The notes: generated from the sequence alone by a model not told the origin. A stretch of DNA of 25,956 nucleotides from a virus (IMGVR_UViG_3300048579_000065), one strand, 5' to 3'; positions 1 to 16,673 are shown, counted from the stretch's first letter. A program made the numbers and translations.

Positions 1-53
1 ACAATGTTGAAATTACGCCAACCAATTAAATATACAGGCAAGGGATTAGACAT
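1..53 (-). CDS. Partial CDS running off the window edge (MSNPLPVYLIGWRNFNI...)
   Basis: ATG at 53 overlaps the end of the upstream gene, preceded by GAGG/GTGG; frame open to position 1. Confidence 0.5.
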   Translation of the reverse strand, partial: MSNPLPVYLIGWRNFNI

Positions 54-342
54 TCACCACTTCCTCATCAACAGTTATTATCCTATGTATTAGCCTGAAG
101 GTATGTTCTTTGTTTTCAGGATCTAATCTTACTGCTACCAAGGCTTTGGCAGCCTTTTCAACATTAGTAAATCCTGACTTAGATCCATCAAACTGCTTAT
201 AACCACTACACTTAGTAGCTTTTGAGGCTATACTACCATAATTGCTATCAACAAACTCACGAGTTTTAGACTTCCATTGGTGTTGGATAGTATAGTAATC
301 TAGTATTGTTACATGGTGGCTAGTTTCTATAGTTTTAGACAT
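46..342 (-). CDS. Hypothetical protein (98 aa)
   Basis: ORF track 46..372; ATG at 342 (MSKTIETS) lies just after the methyltransferase stop with GGAG upstream, so it is the preferred start. Confidence 0.7.
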   Translation of the reverse strand: MSKTIETSHHVTILDYYTIQHQWKSKTREFVDSNYGSIASKATKCSGYKQFDGSKSGFTNVEKAAKALVAVRLDPENKEHTFRLIHRIITVDEEVVNV

Positions 343-343
343 C

Positions 344-1006
344 TTACTTCTCCAAACACAGTAGCCCCTCAAACTCTAAATAGCCTGCCTTTATAGTATA
401 CTTCTTTATTCCCAGCTCGGCTGCTAGATTAACCATTTCATTAGAATCTAGGAAGAAAAGATTATCTCTTTGCTTAGCAGGGCTGAGACTATGACTATTC
501 ATAAAGTTAACAATAAGACAAATATTAGTATGTTTAAGTAACATTTCTAGTGTAGGCTTAACTACTTCATAAAGCCACTCATACTTGGAAGTCTCACCTT
601 TCTCAGTAAAGGTTCCATTGACCACAATAAATTCATAGCTTTCATCCTTATCTAGTTCCTGTCCTACAGGAAGGTGGAAGAATAGATCATCATAATGTCT
701 TAGCCCCGCTTCCTTTACCATCTCTAGACTAGCATCACAGCCTCTGTATTGTTCATCATCCCAGCCCCTTTCACCAAAGGAATTAAACAAACTAGCACAG
801 CCCATCCCAAAATCAAGAACTGTAGCGCCTTTATCCATTTCACTTTGATAAGTGGAAAGGATATTACAGATAGTATTGTTTCTAGTCTTAACCTGTTCTA
901 AATTTTTCCAATCTACTTCAAGGGCTTCATTGCCTCTATGCTTTTCTAGACAGGAAGTATAATGATCTACTATTTCTTGAGCAGCAAACTTATTTATTCT
1001 AAGCAT
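344..1006 (-). CDS. Class I SAM-dependent methyltransferase, sugar-locus type
   Basis: Motif I VLDFGMG, motif II YRGCDAS, YEFIVVNGTFTEK; N-terminal HY..CL.KH...VDW and C-terminal NFM...RDNLF resemble the family in bacterial O-antigen/glycosylation loci. Confidence 0.9.
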   Translation of the reverse strand: MLRINKFAAQEIVDHYTSCLEKHRGNEALEVDWKNLEQVKTRNNTICNILSTYQSEMDKGATVLDFGMGCASLFNSFGERGWDDEQYRGCDASLEMVKEAGLRHYDDLFFHLPVGQELDKDESYEFIVVNGTFTEKGETSKYEWLYEVVKPTLEMLLKHTNICLIVNFMNSHSLSPAKQRDNLFFLDSNEMVNLAAELGIKKYTIKAGYLEFEGLLCLEK

Positions 1007-1178
1007 CCTTCAAGACCTCAATTAGCCAATCTCTTAGCTCTTTAGCCTCATGAACTGTTAGTACCTCATCTTCAAGCCTTTGGCCTGTAACTCTGTCACA
1101 TATAAAGACATCAAAATGACCTTGTTCTCTTTTATGTATTGAAAATTTTGTCACACCTTCGCTAGTTAGAAATTCCAT
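999..1178 (-). CDS. Hypothetical protein (59 aa)
   Basis: ORF track 999..1211; ATG at 1178 (MEFLTSEG) has a GGAG SD; overlaps both neighbours. Confidence 0.65.
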   Translation of the reverse strand: MEFLTSEGVTKFSIHKREQGHFDVFICDRVTGQRLEDEVLTVHEAKELRDWLIEVLKDA

Positions 1179-1950
1179 AAATCTTCTCCATTTCAGCAGG
1201 GCTAGGTTCATACTTGTTGAAACTTGTATTAGGACTGTAAGTATAAGGATGGTAATAGTCTCGGCCTAGCCAATTCTCACACTCTACATCACTATACCTA
1301 TAACTTACACTCCACCTTATTTGGTCTTCAGTAGTGTTGGTGCCGGATTTGTGGACCAAATTTGTACTAAATAATACCAAATCTCCTGGCTCCATGTCAA
1401 GAGCTGTGAAGTCATTTCCAGGCTGAGTAGCTTCTACAGCAAAATTAGATACTATACTTGTTGTCTTAGTTTCAGTACAATGACTGCCTGGCAAGACTTT
1501 TAAGCTTCCTACAGGTTTGGTTTTAACAAGAGGGAACCAAGCCACGGTGCTCGACAACGAGCCTTGAGTTGAGCCAAAATCTCTATGAACAGGAGTTTTC
1601 CATACAGCATCTTTCTTGGCCAGATTCTTATTATGAAAGAACAGTACAGGCTTAGTATTTAGCACAGGAAACTTTATATTAAAGTCTCTCTCTACAAGAT
1701 TCATAATCATTTCATCAAATTGAAACTTATGTAAGGCTGGAAGATTCTGTATTATCTTTCCACAATTTTGTACTACTTGTGGATAAGTCTTAAATAAGGT
1801 AATTAAGTTTTGCTCAAAATTACCACCTTTAATGTTGTAGTGTTTAATTTGCTTATTGAAGATGTATATAGCATCTGCCTTAATCTCAGCTAGTTTCTGA
1901 GTATTTAACACCTGTCTATAGACTCTGTAGCCAAGTTTCTTGTGATCCAT
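1162..1950 (-). CDS. PhyH-family 2-oxoglutarate/Fe(II) dioxygenase
   Basis: Facial triad VHRD...LVHKSG, AWFPL, GSLKVLPGSH, MEPGDLVLFS, C-terminal RWSVSYRY. Confidence 0.92.
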   Translation of the reverse strand: MDHKKLGYRVYRQVLNTQKLAEIKADAIYIFNKQIKHYNIKGGNFEQNLITLFKTYPQVVQNCGKIIQNLPALHKFQFDEMIMNLVERDFNIKFPVLNTKPVLFFHNKNLAKKDAVWKTPVHRDFGSTQGSLSSTVAWFPLVKTKPVGSLKVLPGSHCTETKTTSIVSNFAVEATQPGNDFTALDMEPGDLVLFSTNLVHKSGTNTTEDQIRWSVSYRYSDVECENWLGRDYYHPYTYSPNTSFNKYEPSPAEMEKIYGISN

Positions 1951-2093
1951 TACTTAACTATCTCCTCAATAATGTAACACTCATCATCACAATTGTATTC
2001 AAGGTGTTTTGGTAGTAGTTTGCTAGCATACCTATCATTAGGACTTGACAGACTATTAACCTTTCCATGCTGTAATAAGACATCAATTGTCAT
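1950..2093 (-). CDS. Small hypothetical protein (47 aa, MTIDVLLQHGK...IEEIVK), not in ORF track
   Basis: Fills the gap exactly; its TAA overlaps the PhyH ATG (TAATG); contains the PhyH SD (GAGGAG). Confidence 0.6.
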   Translation of the reverse strand: MTIDVLLQHGKVNSLSSPNDRYASKLLPKHLEYNCDDECYIIEEIVK

Positions 2094-2337
2094 CTTTCTT
2101 AGCCAAATCTATTACTATTCTTCTAGTTTCAGGGTTTCCCTTAAACCAAGAGCTGTCATACATTTCAGACACATTATCAACTCTATATTTTTTAAAGGTT
2201 GAGAAGCTGTGCAGGAAGTGTTCCAATTTATCATTAAATTCCTGATTTTCTTTATTTTTCTTCTCTAATCTTTCAGCATCTCTCCTATCCAACTCAGCTT
2301 TAAGTTGCTCATCTGTTGCTTCTTTAATATCAATCAT
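2083..2337 (-). CDS. Hypothetical protein (84 aa)
   Basis: ORF with GAGG SD; ATDEQLKAELDRR helix common in small phage proteins. Confidence 0.75.
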   Translation of the reverse strand: MIDIKEATDEQLKAELDRRDAERLEKKNKENQEFNDKLEHFLHSFSTFKKYRVDNVSEMYDSSWFKGNPETRRIVIDLAKKDDN

Positions 2338-3142
2338 ATATAACCTCAGCTATTTGTATGTTGCCCCTAAGACTCTCATCATTATTGTACAAGCAGTACA
2401 CTTTGTCATCATTTGTAAGTTGAAAAGGGTAAGGATAAGCCACGATGCTATCCTCACATTCTAGCACGGTTGGTAGCCACTGATCATGATATTTTGTTAA
2501 TACCATACCTTTATAGTTCCTTTTACCAAACTCTCTGAAGCAGCAAAAAATACTATCTTTGAAAGGTACGGGCCTAGCATAACAGAAGCCCCCACTAATA
2601 ACATCCTTAAAGTTTCTAAGAACATACCTTTCTTTACCAGTAGTGTCAAAGTATATACCACATTGTCTTATAGAATATAAAGCCTCTTTGTTTTTCCAAG
2701 CCTGGAAACTCATGTAATAGAGAGTATTTTTTTGTATTGTAGGCATTGAGCATCCAATATCATTGTCATCTCTTTCTAGCAAAACATTTATCTTATTAGT
2801 CCCAAGATCCATGTAGCACATACAGCTCTTAGAACTTGACTCATTATCTCCACCTAGATTCCAGCCGGTGAAGAACATTTCCTTACCTGAAACAAAACTA
2901 GGCATAGTGCCTTGTGACCAAGCTGTTCCAGGCTTACCAGTAAAATCTAGTATATTAGAGCCAGTCACATCTATTGAAAAATCATGCACTATTTTCCCCA
3001 AAAACCACATTACTGTTCGGTTTTGAGAATCCCGAGTTGAACACCATACTCTACCATCCTCAGTAACTAAGGGGGCTTGAGTTCCTGAATAGTGTTGACC
3101 ATGTAGGTTAACTTTAATTTCATGTATTTTCTTAAGTCTCAC
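2330..3142 (-). CDS. Five-bladed beta-propeller glycosidase-like protein (GH32/43/130-like fold), sugar-locus family
   Basis: TQAP, STRD, GKPGTAWSQGTMPS, MFFTGWN, SMP, YYMS, YARP, FCCFR, VAYPY, LYN repeats; GTG at 3142 has a GGAG SD (ORF track start 3163). Confidence 0.7.
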   Translation of the reverse strand: MRLKKIHEIKVNLHGQHYSGTQAPLVTEDGRVWCSTRDSQNRTVMWFLGKIVHDFSIDVTGSNILDFTGKPGTAWSQGTMPSFVSGKEMFFTGWNLGGDNESSSKSCMCYMDLGTNKINVLLERDDNDIGCSMPTIQKNTLYYMSFQAWKNKEALYSIRQCGIYFDTTGKERYVLRNFKDVISGGFCYARPVPFKDSIFCCFREFGKRNYKGMVLTKYHDQWLPTVLECEDSIVAYPYPFQLTNDDKVYCLYNNDESLRGNIQIAEVIYD

Positions 3143-3290
3143 GTTCTTTCTCCATAGCTTCAATCTCTTCTACTATACAAAACGAGCACATGTGTCCTGA
3201 GATACAAAACTTATGTACCATTCTGTTACAGCCCAAACACATCTCTTTATTTGTCTCTAAGAAGAATAAAGACTTAAACCACTTCCACAT
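3132..3290 (-). CDS. Small Cys/His-rich zinc-finger protein (52 aa)
   Basis: ATG at 3290 with GGAG SD; CLGC..HKFC..HMCSFC. Confidence 0.65.
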   Translation of the reverse strand: MWKWFKSLFFLETNKEMCLGCNRMVHKFCISGHMCSFCIVEEIEAMEKERET

Positions 3291-3714
3291 TGTTTCTCCA
3301 CTTTCCAAATAGCTCTGGATACTTGTCTTTCCAAGACTGGTTAAGACTAGGATCACCTTGTAAGATTCTATAGTCTAAAAGATAATCATCATGGTAAAAA
3401 AGATCAATCTTATTTATAAGATCTTGATTTCTTTCCATAGCTTTTGGGCTAGGCTCAAAGGTTATAAACTTGTAATCCTTATAACCTTCTATAAATACTG
3501 AGTCATCAGCCCAGCCAAGATTATCAGTCATAAGATCACCTGTTTCTTTATTTATTCTTAGGTAATCTGTACTGTAATGCTCTGTTACATCATGTCCTTC
3601 ATGATCTTTGGCTGGAAATCTAGCAATCCTGTACTCTTTTGTTCTTCCACCACCATATCCAAGATAATACTCTACTTTACAAGTTTTACAAGCTATGTTA
3701 GAATCACTACCCAC
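3274..3714 (-). CDS. Hypothetical protein, possible Zn binding
   Basis: 146-aa ORF; CKTC...HEGH. Confidence 0.75.
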   Translation of the reverse strand: MGSDSNIACKTCKVEYYLGYGGGRTKEYRIARFPAKDHEGHDVTEHYSTDYLRINKETGDLMTDNLGWADDSVFIEGYKDYKFITFEPSPKAMERNQDLINKIDLFYHDDYLLDYRILQGDPSLNQSWKDKYPELFGKWRNNVEVV

Positions 3715-3910
3715 CTACTCTTTCCTCCAAAATACTTAATCTTTGTTCTAACTCTCTTAATCTGGTATTTAATGACTTCTTTACTTTAGCCGGACACTGT
3801 ACACACCACCAGGAAGGAAATCTTCCTGGATTCTTGTCTCCACAAACAGTACAATGTAAGTCTTTACCATCTCCTTCTGGAGTGTGTCTCTCATAATCTT
3901 CATTAAACAT
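3707..3910 (-). CDS. Small zinc-ribbon/coiled-coil protein
   Basis: CTVC...CVQC then RLRELEQRLSILE; AGGAG SD upstream. Confidence 0.7.
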   Translation of the reverse strand: MFNEDYERHTPEGDGKDLHCTVCGDKNPGRFPSWWCVQCPAKVKKSLNTRLRELEQRLSILEERVGG

Positions 3911-3943
3911 TAGATTTCATTACTCCTTTTTATGTTAGAATCA

Positions 3944-4261
3944 CTACCCATCTGCTCCCTCCTTCCAAATATCAAACTTGGAACCACACCAAGGACAGTG
4001 GTTAATAAATAAGCCGTTATCTTTAGGCTTCTCCCTATACATTATGCCAGCCACAAAATGGTCACGGCATCCTTGTTTCATTGCTTCAGGTGACATATCT
4101 GTTAGCACACAAACGACAAATCCTCTACCATGATTAGCTTCTGGAGATAAGTGAAAATCCATTGCTGGACACCAATTTGCTTTAGTTTTATTTTTACTAA
4201 TCCATTCAAGAGAGCAAGGCTTATACTCTTCACCTTCTTTAATACCTTTATAATCAGCCAT
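3944..4261 (-). CDS. Hypothetical protein with C-terminal CPWCG zinc knuckle
   Basis: WCPAM...INHCPWCG; TAATG coupling to the upstream gene. Confidence 0.8.
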   Translation of the reverse strand: MADYKGIKEGEEYKPCSLEWISKNKTKANWCPAMDFHLSPEANHGRGFVVCVLTDMSPEAMKQGCRDHFVAGIMYREKPKDNGLFINHCPWCGSKFDIWKEGADG

Positions 4262-5022
4262 TAAATCTCATCACTCCTTTTATGGTACTTATTGTTTACC
4301 CCAGCTAGATAAACCTCATAAGGTTTAGTTGATTTAGTTATTACAGCGCCCATTCCGATCACATTGTTTGGGGCTATTTCTACACCATCCTTAATAGAGG
4401 TATTAATACCTAAGAAACTATTGTGGCCAATCTTACAGCCTCCCGAGATTACTGTACCAGTAGAGATAAAGCAAAAGTCTTCTAGCTCTGATCCATGCCC
4501 AAGATGCACATTACTCCACAATATACAGGATTTACCCATCTTAGCACGAGTCTGTACTCTAGAATGCTCAAGTATTATTGATCCTATCCCAACCTCAGAA
4601 CCATGAGCCATATAAGCTAAGTCATGTATAAAGGTCATTATAGCTATATCATTGTTAAAACAATCATTGAAAATCTTCTCTCTAAGTGAGTTACACTTAT
4701 TGTAGCCTATTGGTAAGAATATGCCCATAGGTTTAGGAAAAGCGTCCATAGATTCAGCAACCCATTGAGTTTTAATGTGGTCCCATGGCTGAACCTTTAC
4801 ATAATCAGCATTGACAGTTAGACCTTTATACCTATCCATAAACCAACGTTTAATAATAGATTCACCTGGATAAGTCACAATATACCCTTTACCTTCATCT
4901 TTGCTTGTAGTCCAGTTTACCTGCCTATCTCCTAAAACATAAGCTTTATAAGAGTCATGCCTAAGATAGTTGTAGAAGTCTTGGGCTAAAATACCATTAC
5001 CAAAAATGGTGAAATCAATCAT
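4261..5022 (-). CDS. Hexapeptide-repeat sugar acetyltransferase (NeuD/PglD-like)
   Basis: IFGNG N-terminal motif; PIGYNKCNSLREK; left-handed beta-helix repeats ILWSNVHLGHGS, ISGGCKIGHNSFLGINTSI, IGMGAVITK. Confidence 0.92.
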   Translation of the reverse strand: MIDFTIFGNGILAQDFYNYLRHDSYKAYVLGDRQVNWTTSKDEGKGYIVTYPGESIIKRWFMDRYKGLTVNADYVKVQPWDHIKTQWVAESMDAFPKPMGIFLPIGYNKCNSLREKIFNDCFNNDIAIMTFIHDLAYMAHGSEVGIGSIILEHSRVQTRAKMGKSCILWSNVHLGHGSELEDFCFISTGTVISGGCKIGHNSFLGINTSIKDGVEIAPNNVIGMGAVITKSTKPYEVYLAGVNNKYHKRSDEI

Positions 5023-5024
5023 AA

Positions 5025-5924
5025 TTAACCTCTGTAAGCTGGAAACATTGTAGTAGTCTTGTTTTTAGACAATTCTTCATATGTGCTAGGCTGGTGAATT
5101 ATCTTATATATGTAATTATTCAAATTCATGTTAGCAAAACCGTGCTTAAATCTTCTTAAACCTTCTCCACTAGCTCCATCTGGTACTGAACCAATCTCTA
5201 GTCTGTCTAGCCCCAAGGCTTTGAAGAACTTAATAGCTGTAAACATTGTGTCAAAATTTGCTTGAAGCTTATAGAAGTCCTCAGAATAAGGAAATGATGC
5301 ATGATAGTATATTGAGGAACCTTGTATATAAAAGAGGGCTAAACCTAAAAGGCTGTCTTCACGATCATACTCATCAGAGTTCTGCATAGTATTAAATAAG
5401 ACTGCTCCAGGGACTTTTAATACAAGATCCCATATCTGTTCCTTGCTATAGTGTGTCCAAGCATCAGGAGATATATTATGCCTTTTAATTAAGTTCTTAT
5501 AGCCTACACAAGCATATTTTGCATAACCTTCAGGATTTGCTACAACCTCAGTGTAAATATGATTCTTATCACACTTCTTAATGTTTCTTTTATGGTTCTC
5601 AGGAAGTTTACTTTCATCAAACTTTGCTAAATCAACCACAGCATGTTCTTTATACACTTCCTGATGTTTTAAGTAACCATTATGTGCTAGACAAAATCTA
5701 GCCAAATTAAAATGATCTCCCAGTGGATCAGTTATTAAGGTAGTTGTTATTTCATTAGAATGCTCATGAAGTATGTGCTCAGAAAAAAATGGATAGACTG
5801 AAATCCTGTCTACATAAGATGTTTCAGGTATTTGTCTATGTACAAAACCATTCTTAATCTCACCATGTTTGGCATAAACATTCTGATATTCTTGGCTAGC
5901 ATATCCTTGGGTTACCATTTCCAC
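5025..5924 (-). CDS. GNAT/FemAB-like N-acyltransferase
   Basis: LITDPLG, YKEHAVVDL, HKRNIKK, IYYHAS, LEIG...GEGLRRFKHGF (FemABX-type GLxxFK motif). Confidence 0.85.
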   Translation of the reverse strand: MEMVTQGYASQEYQNVYAKHGEIKNGFVHRQIPETSYVDRISVYPFFSEHILHEHSNEITTTLITDPLGDHFNLARFCLAHNGYLKHQEVYKEHAVVDLAKFDESKLPENHKRNIKKCDKNHIYTEVVANPEGYAKYACVGYKNLIKRHNISPDAWTHYSKEQIWDLVLKVPGAVLFNTMQNSDEYDREDSLLGLALFYIQGSSIYYHASFPYSEDFYKLQANFDTMFTAIKFFKALGLDRLEIGSVPDGASGEGLRRFKHGFANMNLNNYIYKIIHQPSTYEELSKNKTTTMFPAYRG

Positions 5925-6076
5925 CTACACTTTATAATAACTGTCTTACCATCTTTAGTCTTAATTATGATTGGATCTGAACATGGTAGCCGCCTGACTT
6001 GATCCTTAAGTTCCTGTACAGTGTACATTTTAGGCACTGGTAAAGGTTCAGGTGGGGCTATAAGTATATTGAACAC
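5912..6076 (-). CDS. Small hypothetical protein (54 aa, MFNILIAPPEPLPVPKMYTVQELK...CRWKW), not in ORF track
   Basis: Frame open from GTG 6076 (alternative ATG at MYTV) to TAA 5912; bridges the gap and overlaps both neighbours. Confidence 0.5.
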   Translation of the reverse strand: MFNILIAPPEPLPVPKMYTVQELKDQVRRLPCSDPIIIKTKDGKTVIIKCRWKW

Positions 6077-6347
6077 TTGATTTCATCCCTGCTTTTAACA
6101 CTTGCATTATGTCATAATGATCACCTTTAGTCAATAGATCAAATAAGAAATTATCAATTAAAAACTTCCTAACAGCATAGGATATATCAAGTTCTGGATT
6201 ATTCATCATCATAGTGTAGCACCTATCTACAAGAGGCAGAAGGTACTTAAACTCAATGTGTTGATTATATCCTGCTAGTTCAAATAATATCTTATACTTC
6301 AGGCCATTAAGTTCCAACATTTGCTCATCTGGCAAGTTTATTTGCAT
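6048..6347 (-). CDS. Hypothetical protein (99 aa), first gene of the accessory operon
   Basis: ORF with AGGAG SD directly downstream of a sigma70 promoter. Confidence 0.8.
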   Translation of the reverse strand: MQINLPDEQMLELNGLKYKILFELAGYNQHIEFKYLLPLVDRCYTMMMNNPELDISYAVRKFLIDNFLFDLLTKGDHYDIMQVLKAGMKSSVQYTYSPT

Positions 6348-6353
6348 AATAAA

Positions 6354-6382
6354 AGACTCCTACCATTTATAGATAAGAGTCT
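6354..6382 (-). promoter_or_regulatory. SD-sequestering hairpin / possible intrinsic terminator
   Basis: AGACUCUUAUC-uauaaau-GGUAGGAGUCU, an 11-bp stem with 2 G.U, followed by UUUAUU and AUG. Confidence 0.7.
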
Positions 6383-6406
6383 AGCACGATTTTGGCTAAG
6401 AGTCAA
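6378..6406 (-). promoter_or_regulatory. sigma70-type promoter
   Basis: TTGACT (6406-6401), 17-bp spacer, TGc-TAGACT (-10 at 6383-6378 with extended TG). Confidence 0.8.
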
Positions 6407-6409
6407 GTA

Positions 6410-6979
6410 TTATTTTACAACATCTATCACTTTCTTTGTTGTAATTGGCTGCCTAGACTTATCTGGCTTAGGATCTCTGACTAGCTGAGAGTCATCTTCA
6501 TCATCATTATCAGCAACCTCATCAAGGCTAAGGCTATGAACAATGTCCTGATAAGCCCCGCCTACAATCCTATTGGATTTAGCATCTCTAACAGGTGGAT
6601 TCTTACGTTCTAGCTGATCCTTAACAATCTTAGCATCCTTCTTTCGGTGGCTAGGAACTTCAATGAAGTAGTAGCCTGGAATAGGTGATTCCTCAGTCTT
6701 ATAGACAAGTACACCTTCTGCATACTCTCTATCATCAAAGGCTGCATCAGGATTCTTATAGAGCATATTTAAGGTATGGTAGTTATTAGCACTTCTGTTA
6801 ATACCTTGCCTAGAATCCTCTGGAAACATCTCTTGTAGACTCTTTCCAGCTTTGTCTCCTAGATGTCGCTTGCTAGCCTCATGAAGCTTACCAAAGTCAA
6901 CATCATTCTTCGGCTGAATGAACTCCCATGTGCTTGGAGTATAGAAGGTAAAGCATTGTTTCTTATGTGAAGGTGCCAT
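6410..6979 (-). CDS. Hypothetical protein (189 aa), probably late-expressed
   Basis: ORF with AAGGA SD and upstream AGATAGAAT motif. Confidence 0.85.
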   Translation of the reverse strand: MAPSHKKQCFTFYTPSTWEFIQPKNDVDFGKLHEASKRHLGDKAGKSLQEMFPEDSRQGINRSANNYHTLNMLYKNPDAAFDDREYAEGVLVYKTEESPIPGYYFIEVPSHRKKDAKIVKDQLERKNPPVRDAKSNRIVGGAYQDIVHSLSLDEVADNDDEDDSQLVRDPKPDKSRQPITTKKVIDVVK

Positions 6980-7012
6980 AGATATTAAATTCCTTTGAAG
7001 GTTAACAAAGAA

Positions 7013-7021
7013 ATTCTATCT
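7013..7021 (-). promoter_or_regulatory. Putative late promoter motif AGATAGAAT
   Basis: Matches the RGATARAMT motif found upstream of head genes; 33 nt before the ATG. Confidence 0.55.
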
Positions 7022-7055
7022 TATAAATAAGATTGCAAAGTTATTTAGCAAATAT

Positions 7056-7352
7056 CTAAGTCTTTTGAAGGTTATTCTGTAACAATTGTAATCCCTTTTC
7101 AAAACTCTCATCTGCTCTATCAAGAAGAATATCTACAATGTCTTTTCCATATACTCCCACCCCATCCCTTACCACTAATCTAAGCTTTGCAAAATCACTT
7201 TTATTCATATGACCTAAATAAGGAAGACCACCATTACATACAGAGGCAATAATAGAATCCCCTTGAACACGCACTATGAAAAAGCTAACTTGTCTATAAG
7301 TACCATACTTATGCCAAACATCTCCAACCTTTACTGTGAGAGGATCTAGGTG
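7056..7352 (-). pseudogene. 5'-truncated hypothetical gene (HLDPLTVKVGDVWHKYG...LQKT)
   Basis: Frame is open 26 codons upstream of GTG 7274, to an in-frame TAA at 7355-7353, with protein-like sequence but no start codon or SD. Confidence 0.5.
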
Positions 7353-7773
7353 TTATGAGCTGACGTTGTTTAGAGAAGAACCTATAATCAAAGCCTGCTA
7401 AGGCTACATTCTCATACCTATCTACAAAATCCTCAGCACATTTGAAGATAGTTCCATCAGCAACAGGTATTTTAGTATTCCTGTTAAGTCTTACAAATCC
7501 ATCAAGATTATCATCTAATATCCAGTGCCTATCATAACCATTGTCTATAGAGTGTTGCCACACAAAATTCCTGGCTGGAATTGATCCTTGACCTAGATTA
7601 CTGAATGGTAAAACAAGAATCTTATCTTTATCTATATGTTGAGCATAGAGATCATACTCTTGAGGTTCCACGGCTATAAGGTAAGGTACATTAAGCTTCT
7701 CTAATGCTTTAGATGTGAGTCTTGTATCATGCCTGCCTTTAGAGATAATATAAACAGGATAATTAGGATTCAA
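7309..7773 (-). pseudogene. TET-associated glycosyltransferase (TAGT/GREB1-related), C-terminally truncated
   Basis: YPVYIISKGR, AVEPQEY..Y, VLPFSNLGQGSIPARNFVW, HWILDDN, CAEDFVDRYENVALAG; similarity stops at RQLITP and the expected NTRIYSC/RYNEDTDL/KGGN half is absent. Confidence 0.75.
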
Positions 7774-8128
7774 TGCTAGTGTACCTGTAGTCAGAAGGTT
7801 TAATTAAGTCTTGTTTTGGATACCAGACACTTTTAGTCTTATCAGTAACTTTTTGATTAATTAAGTTTGAGAAATCTTTAACATCATCAAATGATAGGAA
7901 GTTAATTTTAAGGCTCTTTACAGGCTCAAGATCTTCCTGTACAAATTCAGGCATACCTTGCCAAGCTTCCTCAAAGAAGTCAGCGCTAGACTTTCCTTGA
8001 ACCATTTTGGCTGAATGCTTCCACCTATCTCTAGCCTTAAGTTCCTTTATAAGGAGTTGAGAGACAGGACTAGACTGATCATCAAGACCACCATTATCTA
8101 TAAATTCTTGTAGTTCTTCTAAGAGCAT
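7763..8128 (-). CDS. Small conserved partner of TAGT glycosyltransferases
   Basis: C-terminal WQGMPEF.QED...F...DV.DF..LI.Q..TDKTKSVWYP motif, typically found directly upstream of phage TAGT genes. Confidence 0.7.
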   Translation of the reverse strand: MLLEELQEFIDNGGLDDQSSPVSQLLIKELKARDRWKHSAKMVQGKSSADFFEEAWQGMPEFVQEDLEPVKSLKINFLSFDDVKDFSNLINQKVTDKTKSVWYPKQDLIKPSDYRYTSIES

Positions 8129-9675
8129 TTAACTGATTCCTCCTTAAATGTATGAAATACTTCATTATGTATACCATTTTTCTTATCTGATAACCATCTT
8201 AGATAAGATTGCTTCTCCTCTTCAGAAGGTGCTTGATTCCATTGAGGGTAGCACTTTTCTCTTTTTAATCCTTTTATAATTGGACACATAAGCAGCCTGT
8301 GGTGATCCCATCCTTGATCAAACCTTCCTCTAGCAGCCTCTCCTTGCCTAGAATAAAAATTTCCATATTTCTCTATTGCTTCAGTAATAGATATTTTCTT
8401 AGTTTCATTAAAAATGAAACCTAAGTAAATGTTAGAACCTTTGTTATTTGATTGTTCTTTTGGTGTTGCTAGTCTAATATTACCTGGCTCATAGTTTCCA
8501 TCATTATCTTCTCTATCTAAAGTATAGCCATGATCTATGAGGTCATAGATATTAGGCCAGTTTGATAAAAGGTATTCATGGAATTTCATAGGAGAATTTA
8601 ACCACTCTTTGTAGACTTTAATACCTCTTCCACCATACCTATAATAAGCTTTATGATTAGGATTTGTACATCTTTGTATACATCCTAATATCCTTTGGTA
8701 TAGCCTGTCTCCTGAAAGTCCAAAACCTCTTTCATGTATTGGCCTGTTCCATTTAGCACATTCACTGCAATATTCTAACTTTCCTTTAGATACTAAGTAA
8801 GCATCCAATAATGCTCTTCTCTTTTCTCCATCAAAACAAGAACACTCACACTCAACCATTGGCTTTTTAATTTTTGATTCAAGGTTATAGGTTGGATAAC
8901 TTTTATTTAATACTCTAAGTCTTCCATAAGTTTCACCTATCATAATGTTTGAATTGAAATCAAATCTCTTTAACTTCTGTCTACCAAAAGCTGCTAACTT
9001 GCTTCTTTCTTTATGATTTAGTGGGGTGCTTGATAGGCTGTATTTAGTGCCTGATGGTTGTTCAGGGGCTAGCAATGCTCTTTCAATGTCCCAACCATTA
9101 TCTAATCTTCTCTGTATAAGCTTATATGAGTAGTCACTAAATTCCTCAACAGCTCTGCCTAGAGACATCTCTTCTCCTAATACAGTAACAATGTTAGAAG
9201 ACTTAGGACCAATCATAAGATTATTCTTAAAGTATCCAGCCATCTTATCCTTTCTAAGGATACTTGAGGTTTCAACAGTTAGATTGGTTTTGGCTAATTC
9301 ATCTTCCAACCAAGACTTGAAGGCTAGAAGCCCTTTGCTATCTGTCTGATCTTTCCAGGCTGGATCTATATCAATATTCTCTCTAGAACAATACAATAGA
9401 ATGTGTCTGTAGCGGCTATACAAAGGTGTACCTTTAAGACCATGTTTCCTTAAAGGATTCTTAGTCACAAGTCTCTGTTCTTTACACGGACAACCTTTCA
9501 TTACTGTCATAGAACTAACAGTAACTCTGTGCTTATGACCATGTACTTTACATTCAACAAGGTACATAGAAATATGTTTACCACGTTCAGTTACTTTAGT
9601 AGGTAACTTACTAAGAGCAATCACATTTCCAAATATTCCACCTGACAAATCCTTACTATTGTTTGCAAATCCCAT
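8119..9675 (-). CDS. HNH-type homing endonuclease with duplicated domain
   Basis: C-terminal unit GETYGRL..CECSC..RC.NPNHKAY.RYGGRGI..TLDREDNDGNYEPGNIRLATPKEQSNN; degenerate N-terminal copy. Confidence 0.85.
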   Translation of the reverse strand: MGFANNSKDLSGGIFGNVIALSKLPTKVTERGKHISMYLVECKVHGHKHRVTVSSMTVMKGCPCKEQRLVTKNPLRKHGLKGTPLYSRYRHILLYCSRENIDIDPAWKDQTDSKGLLAFKSWLEDELAKTNLTVETSSILRKDKMAGYFKNNLMIGPKSSNIVTVLGEEMSLGRAVEEFSDYSYKLIQRRLDNGWDIERALLAPEQPSGTKYSLSSTPLNHKERSKLAAFGRQKLKRFDFNSNIMIGETYGRLRVLNKSYPTYNLESKIKKPMVECECSCFDGEKRRALLDAYLVSKGKLEYCSECAKWNRPIHERGFGLSGDRLYQRILGCIQRCTNPNHKAYYRYGGRGIKVYKEWLNSPMKFHEYLLSNWPNIYDLIDHGYTLDREDNDGNYEPGNIRLATPKEQSNNKGSNIYLGFIFNETKKISITEAIEKYGNFYSRQGEAARGRFDQGWDHHRLLMCPIIKGLKREKCYPQWNQAPSEEEKQSYLRWLSDKKNGIHNEVFHTFKEESVKCS

Positions 9676-9762: not shown

Positions 9763-10932
9763 TTAGTTAACCCCAGAATATGATCCCCGGGATACCACCA
9801 AAGGATCTATAACAGACTCCATATTGAAGCAACAAAACAATCTGTTAAGGGTTGGAGTGTACCTTTCAACACAGAAGGGCCCTGGGACTCCAAACATTGA
9901 GAACTCACTTACACAGGGCTGACTTGGGTCAAAGAATAAGCAATATCCACCACTTGGCAAATCTGGCTCATGTACAAAGATTACTGGCAAACCTGGATCT
10001 GGTTGAAACACTCTTGCCATTGCTGGAACAAAACAACCAGTTACACCTGCTGCTTCTAGGTCAGCTTGAGTAGCCATATAAGCTTGACTATTTTCACCTG
10101 GAAATCTAGCAATCATCAAGTCACGAATCTTAGCGATTTGTGCTGAAGTTGTCAGAGCAATCAATGGACGTTGATAGCCAAGACCGTTGTTACTTGCAGC
10201 ATTAGCCAGAGCGTCTACCTTAGCTTGAATCAACGGGCTAGTCAGGTCAGATCCTTGAGCCAAACCAGTTGCATAAGCTGTAGAACGATTGATAAAGCCA
10301 CCCCACTGAGGAGTTGCATTAACTTCTGCTGTGATTTCAGTATTGCTAAGCATCTTACGATTAGCAAACCTTTCCATTCTTACCAAGCCCATCTTGACTT
10401 CACGAAGTTTGATGTCTTGAGGCATGATAGGAGACTGTCCAGCCAATTCAGTTACAATGAAAGGAAGGTCTAGCGTCCAACCATATGCACCATGAGTATT
10501 AGTGCGGACACCTCTATTCATTTGGTCATTGTTAGGATTAACATTAGAGTTCAGGTTAAAGAAGTCTACGTTACCAGCACCGGCATATTCTTCATTCCAG
10601 CGTACTTGGAAGTCAGTTGAGCGATTGGTTCCATTCTTTCTAAGAATGTTTCTGAAGACTGTCATAGCATTAGCTAGCACACCAACTTGGTCATACAAGC
10701 TAACAATTCGGATACCAGCCAAGTCGGTTGACTGTACTGCCTTCTGGATAGTAGCCTTAACTACATCTTTGAGTCTGCTAGCATCTGGATCATGACCAAA
10801 GGAAGTTTCAATTGCTTCCTCGGCTGACATTACTAGCCGACCGCCTGACTTTAGGACAGAATCAGGGTTATTCTTACGGCTGAAGTCCTCAATTACGTCA
10901 CCAAAGGACTTTTGGATCTCTACTTCTGACAT
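9763..10932 (-). CDS. Major capsid protein (HK97 fold, SU10-MCP-like)
   Basis: 389 aa directly after the protease/scaffold; AAGGAG SD; LYDQV, WNEE, NTHGAYG, QWGGF pattern. Confidence 0.85.
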   Translation of the reverse strand: MSEVEIQKSFGDVIEDFSRKNNPDSVLKSGGRLVMSAEEAIETSFGHDPDASRLKDVVKATIQKAVQSTDLAGIRIVSLYDQVGVLANAMTVFRNILRKNGTNRSTDFQVRWNEEYAGAGNVDFFNLNSNVNPNNDQMNRGVRTNTHGAYGWTLDLPFIVTELAGQSPIMPQDIKLREVKMGLVRMERFANRKMLSNTEITAEVNATPQWGGFINRSTAYATGLAQGSDLTSPLIQAKVDALANAASNNGLGYQRPLIALTTSAQIAKIRDLMIARFPGENSQAYMATQADLEAAGVTGCFVPAMARVFQPDPGLPVIFVHEPDLPSGGYCLFFDPSQPCVSEFSMFGVPGPFCVERYTPTLNRLFCCFNMESVIDPLVVSRGSYSGVN

Positions 10933-12592: not shown

Positions 12593-13015
12593 TTACCTAA
12601 GACTTGACTTAATTAAGTATATATGACTATCAATCTTCTCTTGCACTTCACATAGTATGTTAAGAGTAGTTTGATCATTCTCACTGTTAGCAAGATTGAT
12701 ATTACTTAGATTAGATACTTTTAATGTTTCTAGCTTTTGAAGTAGGTCTCTAGCCAACTCAAGTGCTGAGTCTAGTATTGGTTGATCTGATAGTGAGGAT
12801 ACTTCTAGTGCTTGTAGTAATGTTCCTGAAACTCTACCACCTTGGCCTCTAAGTCTCTCGGCTAGTCTATCAATCAAATCATCATACTCATCATAGATTC
12901 TGTCAAATAGAAGGTGAAACTCATAGAACAGCATTCCTGAGCAATTCCAGTGAGCATTTTTAGCCTGATACCTAATGTTAATCAGGTTAGAGATAGTTCC
13001 ATTTAGGTCCATCAT
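12593..13015 (-). CDS. dps: Dps mini-ferritin (DNA-binding protein from starved cells)
   Basis: Signature AHWNCSG..FYEFHLLFD and IDRLAERL with ferroxidase His/His/Asp/Glu; DQTTLNIL. Confidence 0.93.
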   Translation of the reverse strand: MMDLNGTISNLINIRYQAKNAHWNCSGMLFYEFHLLFDRIYDEYDDLIDRLAERLRGQGGRVSGTLLQALEVSSLSDQPILDSALELARDLLQKLETLKVSNLSNINLANSENDQTTLNILCEVQEKIDSHIYLIKSSLR

Positions 13016-14552: not shown

Positions 14553-16673
14553 TTACCAGCCCTCCAGTATAATCCACCCTGTTTGTGCTCCACCTGTACT
14601 TGGTAATGTACAAGCAGTAGTTGTAGTTGATGTTGGAGTTACTGTAGTATTATTAAATACTACAGCTGGAGCATTCGTAAATGCTGTAGTGTAAGTCACT
14701 ACTTCACCACTATCATTAAATGCATTTAAGTATATTATTACTTTCTTATAGCTTGCACTCCTTTCTGGTTGACTCCAGCTCAGTGATCCCCCAGTCGAAC
14801 CTGAAACTACAGTGATATCAGCACTTCCACGGATTATTACATTAGGTCCAATATTAATATAATTACTTGTAGATGATGATGGAGTGTCTGCACTAGAGCC
14901 AATCAAAATATTATTAGAACCAGTAGTTAAAGTAGAATTACCTGCTCTACGTCCTAAGAAGATGTTATCACTTCCAGACAGCAAAGCTCCACCAGCTGTC
15001 TCTCCTATGCATGTATTCTTTTGACCAGTTGAAATCTGGTATCCAGCACTATCACCAAGAGCAGTGTTGCTACCGCCTGTAGCTAAACTTAATGCACTAT
15101 GGCCTACAGCTACACAGCTAGACCCTGATGTTATAGTTGCTAAAGAAGACCAACCAATTGCTACATTATTGTTGCTTGTGGCAGCTGATAAGGCATTGTA
15201 CCCAATAGCTACACTATAACTAAGTGCTGTTGCAGAGCCGGAACCTAAAGCATTTACACCTACAGCTACATTTTCTTTTCCAGTTGTAATTGAATCAGCA
15301 GCTCCTGATCCTACAGCAGTGTTACTTGAACCCGTTGCTGTAGTTAATGCTTGGTATCCTACTGCTGTGGAGTTACTACCAGTATGTAATGCCAGCGCTG
15401 AGTGTCCAAATGCACAATTCTGAGCACCAGTAATATTTGTACCTAAACTGTCTCTACCAAATGCACAATTGTCAGTTCCGCTTGTATTAGCATCTAAACT
15501 ACCACTACCAAATGCACAAGTATTAGAAGCTGTGTTAGCAAAAGCAGCTTGATATCCTACAGCAGTGGCTCCACTATTTGTAGAAATACCTCCTAATGCA
15601 TCCTTACCTACTGCTGTATTAAATTGTCCAGATGTATTGGCATCAAGACAGCCTGAACCAACTGCTGTTATATTTGCTGCTGTACACAATAACAAAGCAT
15701 TAATACCTACTGCTGTACAATCATCCCCGGCTGTTGTTCCTAATGCATTGCTGCCTACTGCTGTACAATTAGCATTTGTGACAGCATCACCAGCCTGGAA
15801 ACCAATGAGAGTGCAGGAACCATTAGTTGTTAGTGCTGTTCCTGCTGCATAACCCACAGCAGTATTCTGTGTGCCTGAGGTTAATGAATCTAAAGCTGTG
15901 CTACCTACAGCAGTTATTTGTGCTGCTGTACAATTTCTCAAAGTATTATAGCCTAACCCAGTAGAATCATTAGGCGCAGTGCCACAAGACTGCATACATC
16001 CTGATCCTACTGCTGTTATTTGTGTGCCAGTTGTCACATTTCCAGCAGCACCATAACCTAGTCCTGTATTGCTGCTACCAGTTGAAGACCCTAGAGCGTT
16101 GTATCCAACAGCACAGAGAGATGTTCCAGAAATATTACTCATTAAGGCTTGACTGCCTACAGCAGTAATTCTTATGGCTGTATTAACTAATCCTGCTTGG
16201 GCTCCAACTGTTGTACAGTCAGTTCCAGTTGTGAATCCAGCAGCAGTTAGAGTGTTGTAACCAATTGCTGTATTATTACTTCCACTTGTGATTGAGTCAC
16301 CAGCGTTAACACCAATAAGAGTGTTGTTTTTGTTCGTGCTATTTATTGCAGCACCAGCACCCTGACCAAACTTCACTGATGTGGTGTCACCATTAGGATT
16401 ACCTATTGCCCCAAGCGTCAGTGTTACAGCGCCGGTTGAGCCTGAATTGGTGATGAATACTGAATCACCTGTTAAGGTAGTAACTCCACCACCCCCACCT
16501 CCACCACTAGCAGATATAGTAAGAGATCCAGCTACTGAACCATCAATAGTTATTCCACTTCCAGCCTTGAGTTGAGAAGAGCCAGGAAGAATTGATAATT
16601 CATTATTCTCTGTTATGTAGGAGGCATTAGCATCAGCCCCACTTCCACCTTGACTTGGAAATACATTACCCAT
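14553..16673 (-). CDS. Fibre/adhesin-like protein with many (N/C)TAVGxxAL beta-roll repeats
   Basis: Dozens of roughly 14-18 aa repeats (NTAIGYNTL, ITAVGSQAL, NCAFGRDSL), YadA-head-like; Gly-rich N-terminal hinge. Confidence 0.75.
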   Translation of the reverse strand: MGNVFPSQGGSGADANASYITENNELSILPGSSQLKAGSGITIDGSVAGSLTISASGGGGGGGVTTLTGDSVFITNSGSTGAVTLTLGAIGNPNGDTTSVKFGQGAGAAINSTNKNNTLIGVNAGDSITSGSNNTAIGYNTLTAAGFTTGTDCTTVGAQAGLVNTAIRITAVGSQALMSNISGTSLCAVGYNALGSSTGSSNTGLGYGAAGNVTTGTQITAVGSGCMQSCGTAPNDSTGLGYNTLRNCTAAQITAVGSTALDSLTSGTQNTAVGYAAGTALTTNGSCTLIGFQAGDAVTNANCTAVGSNALGTTAGDDCTAVGINALLLCTAANITAVGSGCLDANTSGQFNTAVGKDALGGISTNSGATAVGYQAAFANTASNTCAFGSGSLDANTSGTDNCAFGRDSLGTNITGAQNCAFGHSALALHTGSNSTAVGYQALTTATGSSNTAVGSGAADSITTGKENVAVGVNALGSGSATALSYSVAIGYNALSAATSNNNVAIGWSSLATITSGSSCVAVGHSALSLATGGSNTALGDSAGYQISTGQKNTCIGETAGGALLSGSDNIFLGRRAGNSTLTTGSNNILIGSSADTPSSSTSNYINIGPNVIIRGSADITVVSGSTGGSLSWSQPERSASYKKVIIYLNAFNDSGEVVTYTTAFTNAPAVVFNNTTVTPTSTTTTACTLPSTGGAQTGWIILEGW

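What the first reader, a model, noticed from the sequence alone, without database searches (positions are those of the whole stretch)
344..7773. Phage-encoded sugar-tailoring pathway (GNAT, acetyltransferase, propeller glycosidase, PhyH, methyltransferase) next to a TAGT DNA glycosyltransferase
Seen: five co-oriented enzyme genes downstream of one sigma70 promoter (6378-6406), mostly overlapping or abutting, with phage-like codon usage and small phage ORFs between them. That pattern suggests a long-domesticated cassette rather than a fresh capture. Known: these families co-occur in bacterial amino-deoxysugar (DegT/VioA-WbqC-type) surface-glycan loci, where the propeller, MTase and PhyH roles are poorly defined; TAGT/GREB1 enzymes glycosylate hydroxymethylated pyrimidines in phage DNA. 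Inference: the phage builds an acylated/hydroxylated/methylated sugar and attaches it to its DNA (anti-restriction/anti-CRISPR) or to its virion or host surface. I do not know of this enzyme combination being described in a phage. Caveats: the local TAGT is truncated, and no TET/JBP, C5-MTase or aminotransferase is in the window.
Basis: partly seen in the sequence, partly recalled or inferred. Interest (0 to 1): 0.85.

Follow-up and report, generated by a model that had tools for sequence, protein, structure and literature searches.

The report
Phage amino-sugar tailoring cassette, upstream half
An uncultured wastewater phage carries, just behind its capsid gene, a conserved set of enzymes that most likely decorate an amino-sugar (including a FemX-like enzyme that probably adds an amino acid from a charged tRNA), while the neighbouring DNA-glycosyltransferase gene is only a broken leftover.

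Summary
The five enzyme genes are real. All lie on the minus strand, abutting or overlapping, in a tailed-phage contig. They are a FemX-type double-GNAT transferase (5025-5924), a NeuD/PglB/VioB-type hexapeptide N-acyltransferase (4261-5022), a five-bladed GH130/GH32/GH43-like propeller (2330-3163), a PhyH Fe/2OG oxygenase with an intact triad (1162-1950) and a SAM methyltransferase (344-1006).

The same module recurs in five other phage contigs at 25-62% identity, always downstream of the capsid gene. There it continues into two GT2-type transferases. One complete relative also encodes RmlB-like, DesI/VioA-like and RmlC-like enzymes. It therefore looks like a viosamine-type amino-deoxysugar tailoring and transfer kit.

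The TAGT is a 154-aa stump of a ~277-aa enzyme. It sits in a variable hot-spot and is absent from two relatives, so it is not part of the kit. The claimed promoter is no better than chance.

DNA as the target is poorly supported. Virion proteins are the likeliest target, but this is unproven.

This scan already flagged the adjacent 8 kb of the same genome as an amino-sugar glycosylation cassette. This finding is its upstream half. The new element is the Fem-type enzyme.

The parts
5025..5924 (-). FemX-type double-GNAT transferase (299 aa; database start 5918, 297 aa). Predicted aminoacyl-tRNA-dependent aminoacyl transferase acting on an amino-sugar amine.
   Evidence: AF2 pLDDT 84. Foldseek top hits are FemX, FemA, Sbb17/Sba18 and MprF. 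Family profile vs PDB FemX gives E 2.6e-14, with family F257-K258 aligned to FemX F304-K305. Distant relatives are PF13480.
4261..5022 (-). Left-handed beta-helix (hexapeptide) N-acyltransferase of the NeuD/PglB/VioB type.
   Evidence: PF00132 E 6.8e-17. TIGR03570 E 1.1e-35, 123 bits, below the 160.8 cut-off. Conserved next to the Fem-type gene in all six loci.
2330..3163 (-). Five-bladed beta-propeller of the GH130/GH32/GH43 structural class (277 aa from a TTG start). Role unknown: sugar-phosphate or glycoside-handling enzyme.
   Evidence: AF2 pLDDT 71. VIA Z 19.1 to GH130 phosphorylase/mannoside synthase and GH32/GH43. Atlas TM 0.78-0.81. The long start is supported by alignment A2.
1162..1950 (-). 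PhyH-family Fe(II)/2-oxoglutarate oxygenase (hydroxylase type, HxD triad).
   Evidence: PF05721 E 3.5e-13. Weak TIGR04324 'sporadic carbohydrate cluster' match. H122, D124, H200 and R212 invariant in five orthologues.
344..1006 (-). Class I SAM-dependent methyltransferase.
   Evidence: Weak Pfam hits. The L002 orthologue has clear MTase hits. Motif I and acidic D91 invariant.
46..372 (-). Conserved 108-aa ORF. In relatives it precedes a 230-aa GT2-like gene, so the module runs off the window's left end.
   Evidence: 67% identity to L001 16202-16516. Downstream genes in L016/L002/G001.
3274..4261 (-). Three small ORFs (146, 67 and 105 aa, with Cys pairs) inserted between the acyltransferase and the propeller. 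Lineage-specific.
   Evidence: Conserved with L001 at 54-76%. No matching ORF found in L002, L004, G001/L003 or L017. One weak PHROG hit of unknown function.
6354..6406 (-).
   Evidence: TTGACT-17-TAGACT is 9/12. Site count equals the shuffle expectation. An 11-bp stem is followed by a T-run at 6382-6354.
7309..7773 (-). Truncated TAGT-family DNA-glycosyltransferase remnant (154 aa, TTG start, last ~15-20 residues unrelated).
   Evidence: PF20691 positions 1-141/205. 69% identity to the intact 277-aa L002 protein only in the N-terminal half. Homology ends at 7351. L002 has an ATG start. Full-length homologues are ~270-280 aa.
7763..8128 (-). 121-aa ORF that travels with the TAGT gene (overlapping it). 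Function unknown.
   Evidence: 54% identity to L002 4062-4436, same position.
8119..9675 (-). HNH homing-endonuclease-like gene heading the variable region between the capsid gene and the cassette.
   Evidence: phrog_374 E 2e-47. Orthologue in L002. Absent at this site in L001.
9763..10932 (-). Probable major capsid protein (SU10-type), the conserved upstream neighbour of the module.
   Evidence: Atlas feature score 0.98, 198 shared features, to SU10_MCP clusters. Orthologues in G001 and L017 carry PF17236.

Best explanation
Window 344-6347 is the upstream half of a conserved, cytoplasmic, phage-encoded module that tailors a 4-amino-4,6-dideoxyhexose (viosamine-type) nucleotide sugar and transfers it to an acceptor.

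Proposed route; every step is inferred:
1. A host dTDP-glucose pool is converted by a phage RmlB-like dehydratase and a DesI/VioA-like aminotransferase. Both are seen in relatives; for the window's own genome an earlier scan note that I could not verify reports an aminotransferase just left of the window.
2. The free sugar amine is then acylated. The FemX-type double-GNAT enzyme adds an amino acid from an aminoacyl-tRNA.
3. The VioB/PglD-type hexapeptide enzyme N-acetylates either the sugar amine or the new aminoacyl amine.
4. The PhyH oxygenase hydroxylates the decorated sugar, and the SAM methyltransferase methylates it.
5. The GH130-like propeller handles a sugar-phosphate or glycoside step.
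6. Two soluble GT2-type transferases just beyond the window's left edge attach the product.

The likeliest acceptor is the phage's own particle proteins, because the module is fixed behind the capsid gene, has no membrane parts, and its bacterial cousins sit in a flagellin-glycosylation-like island.

The TAGT gene is a decayed passenger of an HNH-marked variable region and takes no part.
For: Shown:
- Enzyme identities.
- Module synteny in L001/L016, L002, G001 (L003/L020), L004 and L017 at 25-62% identity, always after the SU10-type capsid gene.
- Two GT2-type genes follow the module.
- The complete relative G001 encodes a dTDP-glucose 4,6-dehydratase-like protein (TIGR01181, 338 bits), a DesI-like aminotransferase (E 1.6e-72) and an RmlC-like cupin, but no nucleotidyltransferase.
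- L017 has a DegT in the module.
- Remote Fem-type relatives lie next to DegT (L014), next to sulfotransferase/MTase/GT genes (L015), and directly after flgK-flgL with DegT and giant GT2-TPR proteins (L019).
- The family's invariant F-K aligns with FemX F304-K305. Lys305 is the catalytic residue, and a Fem-like enzyme (Orf11) glycylates the amino-sugar streptothrisamine from Gly-tRNA (PMC12945691).
- No hydrophobic 19-mer reaches the transmembrane range in any cassette protein.
- The TAGT is truncated and dispensable.
Against: - No donor, sugar or acceptor is demonstrated.
- The window's own GT2, DegT and RmlB genes could not be read, because no genome is held.
- The hexapeptide and PhyH scores lie below NCBIfam cut-offs.
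- Fem-fold enzymes can in principle use acyl-CoA.
- The propeller has no acidic residue invariant across all six orthologues, and its model is only moderate (pLDDT 71).
- L017 lacks the PhyH and the 220-aa MTase, so these two are accessory.
- Adjacency to the capsid gene is one inherited arrangement, not six independent ones.
- GT-A DNA transferases resemble GT2 TarP (bioRxiv 10.1101/2023.12.21.572611), so GT2 does not exclude DNA.
Confidence: 0.6

Rival explanations
1. DNA hypermodification. The tailored sugar is attached to hydroxymethylated pyrimidines in phage DNA, by TAGT-like or GT2-like transferases, as an anti-restriction or anti-CRISPR measure.
For: - A TAGT-family gene lies 1.4 kb upstream of the Fem-type gene.
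- L002 keeps an intact TAGT with two DNA methyltransferase genes between capsid gene and cassette.
- TAGT homologues in T4-like Aeromonas phages are annotated as hmC-glucose transferases.
- Phage GT-A DNA transferases structurally resemble GT2 TarP and co-occur with extra sugar-modifying enzymes.
Against: - The window's TAGT lacks its C-terminal ~45% and has lost its ATG start.
- L001 has no TAGT at that site.
- The complete relative G001 has the cassette but no TAGT and no thymidylate-synthase-like hydroxymethylase. The Tet_JBP search was empty, but its control was uninformative.
- No C5-MTase, TET or hydroxymethylase is in the window.
- The module sits in the late structural gene block, not with replication genes.
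Confidence: 0.12
2. Host-envelope remodelling. The module makes a modified sugar that is put on a host lipid-linked glycan (LPS, capsule or teichoic acid) during infection, for example to mask receptors and prevent superinfection or virion trapping.
For: - The GT2 genes' best named matches are lipid-carrier or polysaccharide enzymes (TuaG, PglI, EpsE), but far below cut-offs.
- The enzyme families are typical of O-antigen and capsule loci.
- Remote Fem-type relatives occur in bacterial glycan loci.
Against: - No flippase, polymerase, priming transferase or any membrane protein is seen in the module in the relatives examined; the transmembrane scan covered the window's proteins and six relatives' GT2-type proteins.
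- No integrase or lysogeny genes were seen in the window.
- The module is co-oriented with, and fixed behind, head genes.
Confidence: 0.18
3. Non-sugar substrate. The Fem-type enzyme aminoacylates a protein (for example a capsid lysine or N-terminus) or a small molecule, and the oxygenase, MTase and acyltransferase tailor that product. The GT genes nearby would be a separate function.
For: - The Fem/L-F-transferase/Ate1 class includes protein-modifying aminoacyl transferases and natural-product enzymes.
- Fused relatives exist with a sulfotransferase or a histidine-kinase-like domain.
Against: - The Fem-type gene is always immediately followed by a NeuD/PglB/VioB-type sugar N-acyltransferase.
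- Three of four remote contexts contain a DegT sugar aminotransferase.
- A carbohydrate-class propeller and GT2s are part of the conserved core.
Confidence: 0.08

Closest known systems
Mimivirus fibril glycosylation genes for viosamine (R141 dehydratase, L136 aminotransferase, L142 N-acetyltransferase; methylated Vio4NAc). Recalled from the literature and named by the earlier scan note; review PMC9614988 listed but not read here.
   Same: A virus-encoded route from a 4-keto-6-deoxy sugar, through a DegT-type aminotransferase and a hexapeptide N-acetyltransferase, to a methylated 4-amino-4,6-dideoxyhexose that ends up on the particle.
   Different: This is a tailed phage of about 112 kb. It adds a Fem-type transferase, a PhyH oxygenase and a GH130-like propeller. 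The target is unproven.
Mycobacteriophage virion glycosylation (Freeman et al. 2023, cited in PMC12619734).
   Same: Phage-encoded glycosyltransferases modify capsid and tail-tube subunits.
   Different: Per the citing text only glycosyltransferases and glycans at the C-termini of capsid and tail-tube subunits are reported; from memory, a methyltransferase is also involved and no amino-sugar synthesis or aminoacylation is described there. There is no sequence relation: tblastn of the Fem-type and propeller proteins finds nothing in 50,697 phage records.
FemX of Weissella viridescens, and Orf11/Sbb17-type aminoacyl-tRNA-dependent amide synthases.
   Same: Double-GNAT fold, profile-level homology (E 2.6e-14) and a conserved F-K catalytic pair. 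Orf11 transfers glycine from Gly-tRNA to an amino-sugar amine.
   Different: Only 14-17% identity. It lacks FemA's coiled-coil insert, it is encoded by a phage, and it sits in a nucleotide-sugar context, not a peptidoglycan or antibiotic one. The donor is untested.
TAGT / T6-type beta-glucosyl-HMC alpha-glucosyltransferase (PF20691, phrog_842).
   Same: The N-terminal 141 profile positions are present, including R, DDN and EDF motifs like those described for GT-A DNA transferases.
   Different: The C-terminal ~45% is missing, the start is TTG, and no hydroxymethylase or TET partner is present. It is best read as a pseudogene.
Bacterial flagellin-glycosylation-type island (contig L019).
   Same: A Fem-type PF13480 protein, a DegT aminotransferase and GT2 proteins lie beside the structural protein genes that are presumably decorated.
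   Different: It is bacterial and uses sulfotransferases and giant GT2-TPR proteins. It is 26% identical to the phage enzyme.

Membership tests
FemABX-type aminoacyl-tRNA-dependent transferases | Double (tandem) GNAT fold | tested here: met
   AF2 pLDDT 84. Foldseek FemX E 1.5e-12, TMq 0.64; FemA, Sbb17 and MprF follow.
FemABX-type aminoacyl-tRNA-dependent transferases | Sequence-profile homology to FemX | tested here: met
   Profile of 63 family members vs PDB: FemX E 2.6e-14, FemX(Sa) 2e-6, FemA 5e-5. The single sequence misses the Pfam and NCBIfam cut-offs.
FemABX-type aminoacyl-tRNA-dependent transferases | Catalytic Lys preceded by an aromatic residue (FemX F304-K305) | tested here: met
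   K258 is invariant and F257 is at least 90% conserved in 63 sequences. They align to F304-K305. Role of Lys305: PMC12945691.
FemABX-type aminoacyl-tRNA-dependent transferases | Uses aminoacyl-tRNA as donor | not testable with these tools
   Needs an enzyme assay.
NeuD/PglB/VioB sugar N-acetyltransferases (TIGR03570) | Left-handed beta-helix with hexapeptide repeats and a family-level score | tested here: inconclusive
   Hexapep E 6.8e-17. TIGR03570 E 1.1e-35 but 123 bits against a 160.8 cut-off, and the N-terminal 90 residues are unmatched.
PhyH Fe(II)/2OG oxygenases (PF05721) | Full-length domain match plus the HxD...H triad and a 2OG-binding Arg | tested here: met
   50.7 bits against a cut-off of 22, profile positions 5-211/213. 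H122, D124, H200 and R212 invariant.
Class I SAM methyltransferases | Motif I (D/E-x-G-x-G) and an acidic residue ending beta-2 | tested here: met
   D65-F66-G-M-G69 and D91 invariant. Own Pfam scores are below cut-off, but the L002 orthologue passes.
Five-bladed propeller glycoside hydrolases/phosphorylases (GH130, GH32, GH43, GH117) | Five-bladed propeller fold | tested here: met
   Z 19.1, rmsd 3.1 over 238 residues to GH130. The first 46 rows are glycoside-active or other carbohydrate-active five-bladed propeller enzymes. Atlas TM 0.78-0.81.
Five-bladed propeller glycoside hydrolases/phosphorylases (GH130, GH32, GH43, GH117) | Conserved catalytic acidic residues | tested here: inconclusive
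   D45, D106, D132, E160 and E273 are invariant in four sequences. None stays invariant once remote orthologues are added, whereas R44, R197 and R210 do. The alignment is unreliable at 25% identity.
TAGT DNA glycosyltransferase (PF20691) | Complete GT-A domain (~205 profile positions, protein ~270-280 aa) | tested here: not met
   Only profile positions 1-141 are present, in 154 aa against 277 aa. No C-terminal part is found in any frame.
Phage DNA sugar-hypermodification system | A source of 5-hydroxymethyl (or 5-hydroxy) pyrimidine: ThyA-like hydroxymethylase, or C5-MTase plus TET/5mYOX | tested here: not met
   None in the window. None of PF00303 in the complete relative G001. The PF12851 search was empty but lacked a working control. 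The window's full genome was not searchable.
Virus-encoded virion glycosylation cassette | Glycan demonstrated on particle proteins | not testable with these tools
   Only positional and contextual evidence.

The most novel reading that the evidence does not exclude
The Fem-type enzyme draws its amino acid from a dedicated, non-decoding carrier. Such an RNA could be charged by a host synthetase that does not need the anticodon, and could feed amino acids only into glycan tailoring. That would give a phage particle coated with an aminoacylated, hydroxylated, methylated viosamine.
Probability: 0.06. Interest if true: 0.9.

Novelty: new variant of a known kind. Interest (0 to 1): 0.55.

Why it matters
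- Virus-encoded glycan synthesis is well documented for giant viruses. For tailed phages it is known only in a simple form, as mycobacteriophage GTs.
- A conserved phage lineage with a full amino-deoxysugar route and a Fem-type, probably tRNA-dependent, aminoacylation step would widen the chemistry known for phage particles, with consequences for immune recognition, adsorption and phage-therapy pharmacology.
- It would also give a tractable model for how amino-acid-decorated 4-amino-6-deoxy sugars are made. From my own knowledge, such sugars occur in several O-antigens and their aminoacylating enzymes are poorly defined.
- The result also warns against reading a TAGT hit as evidence for DNA glycosylation without checking that the gene is intact.

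Tried and rejected
- Megablast of the window against 50,697 phage records: no match.
- tblastn of the capsid, Fem-type and propeller proteins against the same records: no match.
- An exact 47-mer in IMG/VR: no match. Single-protein locus search in IMG/VR: none.
- The window's own contig could not be fetched, since no genome is held and the exact-protein look-up is empty. The region left of position 1 was therefore not read.
- The Pfam Tet_JBP search of G001 was empty but its controls rang nowhere, so absence is not shown.
- Rfam scans of the window, L001, L002 and G001 found no tRNA or tRNA mimic at useful scores. G001 has only an odd CAU tRNA-like RNA, so a link between the Fem-type gene and an anticodon-less tRNA could not be tested.
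- Atlas feature search for the propeller gave only unnamed clusters at 0.87-0.90.
- Sequencing runs: partial holders are wastewater metagenomes, and no RNA holder is listed.
- No complex prediction was run, because enzyme-substrate pairs are poor subjects for it.
- I considered and rejected the 72-aa ORF 7056-7274 as the missing TAGT C-terminus. It has no TAGT match, and the upstream edge of that segment (7353-7275) and the spacer downstream of it weakly resemble L001's non-TAGT arrangement.

Full report
SETTING

The window is part of an uncultured tailed-phage contig. The database lists its proteins on a 112,224-bp contig. Portal (16708-18231), an intein-bearing terminase-like gene (18919-21426), a tail-spike-like protein (14553-16673) and a probable SU10-type major capsid protein (9763-10932) all lie on the minus strand. 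Everything in the finding is also on the minus strand, downstream of the capsid gene. GC is an even 35-37% across 1-9000. No GenBank phage matches at the DNA level, or at the protein level for the capsid. Partial holders of the stretch are wastewater metagenomes. No whole genome is held.

OBSERVATION

The five enzymes exist.

- 5025-5924 has no Pfam hit. Its AF2 model (pLDDT 84) matches FemX, FemA, the aminoacyl-tRNA-dependent amide synthases Sbb17/Sba18 and MprF ahead of ordinary GNATs. A profile of 63 family members hits FemX in the PDB at E 2.6e-14. The family's invariant F257-K258 is aligned to FemX F304-K305. Lys305 is the catalytic residue of FemX (PMC12945691).
- 4261-5022 is a hexapeptide acyltransferase closest to NeuD/PglB/VioB.
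- 2330-3163 is a five-bladed propeller. It scores Z 19 to GH130, GH32 and GH43 enzymes, and TM about 0.8 to bacterial 300-aa clusters partly labelled GH32N/GH130.
- 1162-1950 is a PhyH oxygenase with an invariant HxD...H triad and Arg.
- 344-1006 is a class I SAM methyltransferase. Its own score is weak, but its orthologue scores clearly and the SAM motifs are invariant.

Genes overlap or abut, and most have Shine-Dalgarno-like sequences. Small ORFs sit between them. They are conserved only with the nearest relative.

The promoter at 6406-6378 is a 9/12 match, in a region where such sites are as frequent as in shuffled sequence. It overlaps a terminator-like hairpin. The single-promoter claim is therefore not supported.

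CONSERVATION

The Fem-type protein has seven close homologues among 5.8 billion clusters and about 1,850 remote ones among 1.84 billion representatives. Contigs L001/L016 (capsid 92% identical), L002, G001 (= L003/L020; IMG/VR, 121 kb, CheckV 100%), L004 and L017 carry the same module. The order is Fem-type, hexapeptide, propeller, PhyH and MTase, at 25-62% identity. In the phage-length contigs it lies directly downstream of the capsid gene. L004 holds the five genes back to back with no inserts. L017 lacks the PhyH and the 220-aa MTase, so these two are accessory.

In L001/L016, L002, G001 and L017 the module continues into a 216-237-aa GT2-like protein, a 255-268-aa GT2 and a 180-190-aa MTase-like protein. 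The window ends exactly before that part, since its first ORF (46-372) is the orthologue of the gene preceding the GT2-like gene. The 'no intact GT' caveat is therefore an edge effect.

SUGAR PATHWAY

The complete relative G001 also encodes:
- a dTDP-glucose 4,6-dehydratase-like enzyme (338 bits against a cut-off of 365);
- a DegT aminotransferase closest to DesI, which makes dTDP-4-amino-4,6-dideoxyglucose;
- an RmlC-like cupin.

It encodes no sugar nucleotidyltransferase. L017 has a DegT inside the module. This points to a viosamine-type 4-amino-4,6-dideoxyhexose built from the host's dTDP-glucose.

I could not read that DNA, but the relatives make it credible. This finding is thus the upstream half of a cassette the scan had already flagged.

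ROLE OF THE FEM-TYPE ENZYME (inference)

All top structural relatives transfer an aminoacyl group from aminoacyl-tRNA to an amine. One class (Orf11/Sbb17) does so on an amino-sugar. Remote family members (PF13480) sit beside DegT aminotransferases, sulfotransferases, methyltransferases and GTs.

I therefore propose the following order. The enzyme aminoacylates the C4 amine. The hexapeptide enzyme N-acetylates. PhyH hydroxylates and the MTase methylates. The propeller remains unassigned: conserved arginines rather than acids persist across remote orthologues, which is compatible with a sugar-phosphate-handling GH130-like enzyme but does not prove it.

TARGET

No protein in the window's part of the module, or among the relatives' GT2-type proteins tested, has a transmembrane-grade hydrophobic segment. 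No flippase or polymerase is seen. The module is fixed behind head genes in the same orientation. A bacterial relative of the Fem-type gene sits right after flgK-flgL, in what looks like a flagellin glycosylation island. These points favour cytoplasmic glycosylation of self-assembling structural proteins, that is, the virion. This is contextual evidence only. I put it at roughly 45%, with the host envelope at about 20-25%, DNA at about 10-15% and other targets making up the rest.

TAGT

- 7309-7773 matches only positions 1-141 of the 205-position Pfam model.
- It aligns with the intact 277-aa L002 orthologue at 69% identity up to about residue 133-141 and then diverges.
- No frame downstream carries the rest.
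- Its start is TTG where L002 has ATG.
- Full-length homologues (43-50% identity) in Aeromonas, Vibrio and Tenacibaculum phages are all about 270-280 aa.
- Downstream of the break, the window weakly resembles L001 (short tblastx matches at 7353-7275 and 7055-6988), then clearly from 6970; L001 has an ATP-grasp gene instead of HNH + 121-aa ORF + TAGT.
- G001 has no TAGT and no ThyA-like hydroxymethylase.

The TAGT is therefore a decayed passenger of a variable, HNH-marked hot-spot, not a partner of the cassette. It does keep R, DDN and EDF motifs like those described for GT-A DNA transferases, so residual nucleotide-sugar binding cannot be excluded.

NOVELTY

Virus-encoded amino-sugar glycosylation is known from giant viruses, and GT-based virion glycosylation from mycobacteriophages. 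I found no paper describing a Fem-type enzyme in a phage sugar module, and no homologue in deposited phage genomes. BFVD holds one uncharacterised 'FemAB family protein' from an uncultured siphovirus. I rate this a new variant of a known kind, of moderate interest. The speculative link to the anticodon-less tRNA mimic noted elsewhere in this genome could not be tested.

Noticed in passing
window 18919-21426 (-): The 835-aa terminase-like protein carries a Hom_end-associated Hint domain (PF05203, E 2e-16, residues 85-159), which points to an intein inside the packaging ATPase. The G001 orthologue is 981 aa.
   Followed up: no
window 12593-13015 (-): A ferritin/Dps-like protein (PF00210, E 2e-18; phrog_3636) sits inside the head-gene block and is conserved in L001 at 74%.
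   Followed up: no
L010 5170-5253 (G001 contig 65170-65253, +): An odd 84-88-nt tRNA-like RNA with a CAU anticodon loop, a weak 3-bp anticodon stem and a short extra arm. ARAGORN calls it tRNA-Met. Rfam gives only a sub-threshold tRNA-Sec match (27 bits). It is the only tRNA-like gene found in this complete relative.
   Followed up: partly
L001 7385-8176 (+): The closest relative has an R2K-type ATP-grasp gene (PF14243/PF18299) at the site where the window has HNH + 121-aa ORF + TAGT stump. The capsid-to-cassette spacer is therefore a swap hot-spot.
   Followed up: partly
L002 5314-6081 and 7644-8477 (+): The relative with the intact TAGT carries an N6/N4 DNA methyltransferase and a Dam-type methyltransferase next to it, but no C5-MTase or TET in the 21.6 kb seen.
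   Followed up: no
L017 5555-5932 (+); L020 17979-18443 (+): Relatives carry an AdoMet-decarboxylase-like gene (PF02675) between the capsid gene and the cassette, and a peptide deformylase gene just after the sugar module.
   Followed up: no
proteins P0113, P0074, P0030: Remote members of the Fem-type family occur in three fused forms: with a sulfotransferase domain, with an Hpt + HATPase_c histidine-kinase-like part, and as a tandem duplication (659-670 aa).
   Followed up: no
With a Fem-type, probably tRNA-dependent enzyme in the same genome, a donor role is worth testing. I could not read that sequence.
   Followed up: partly
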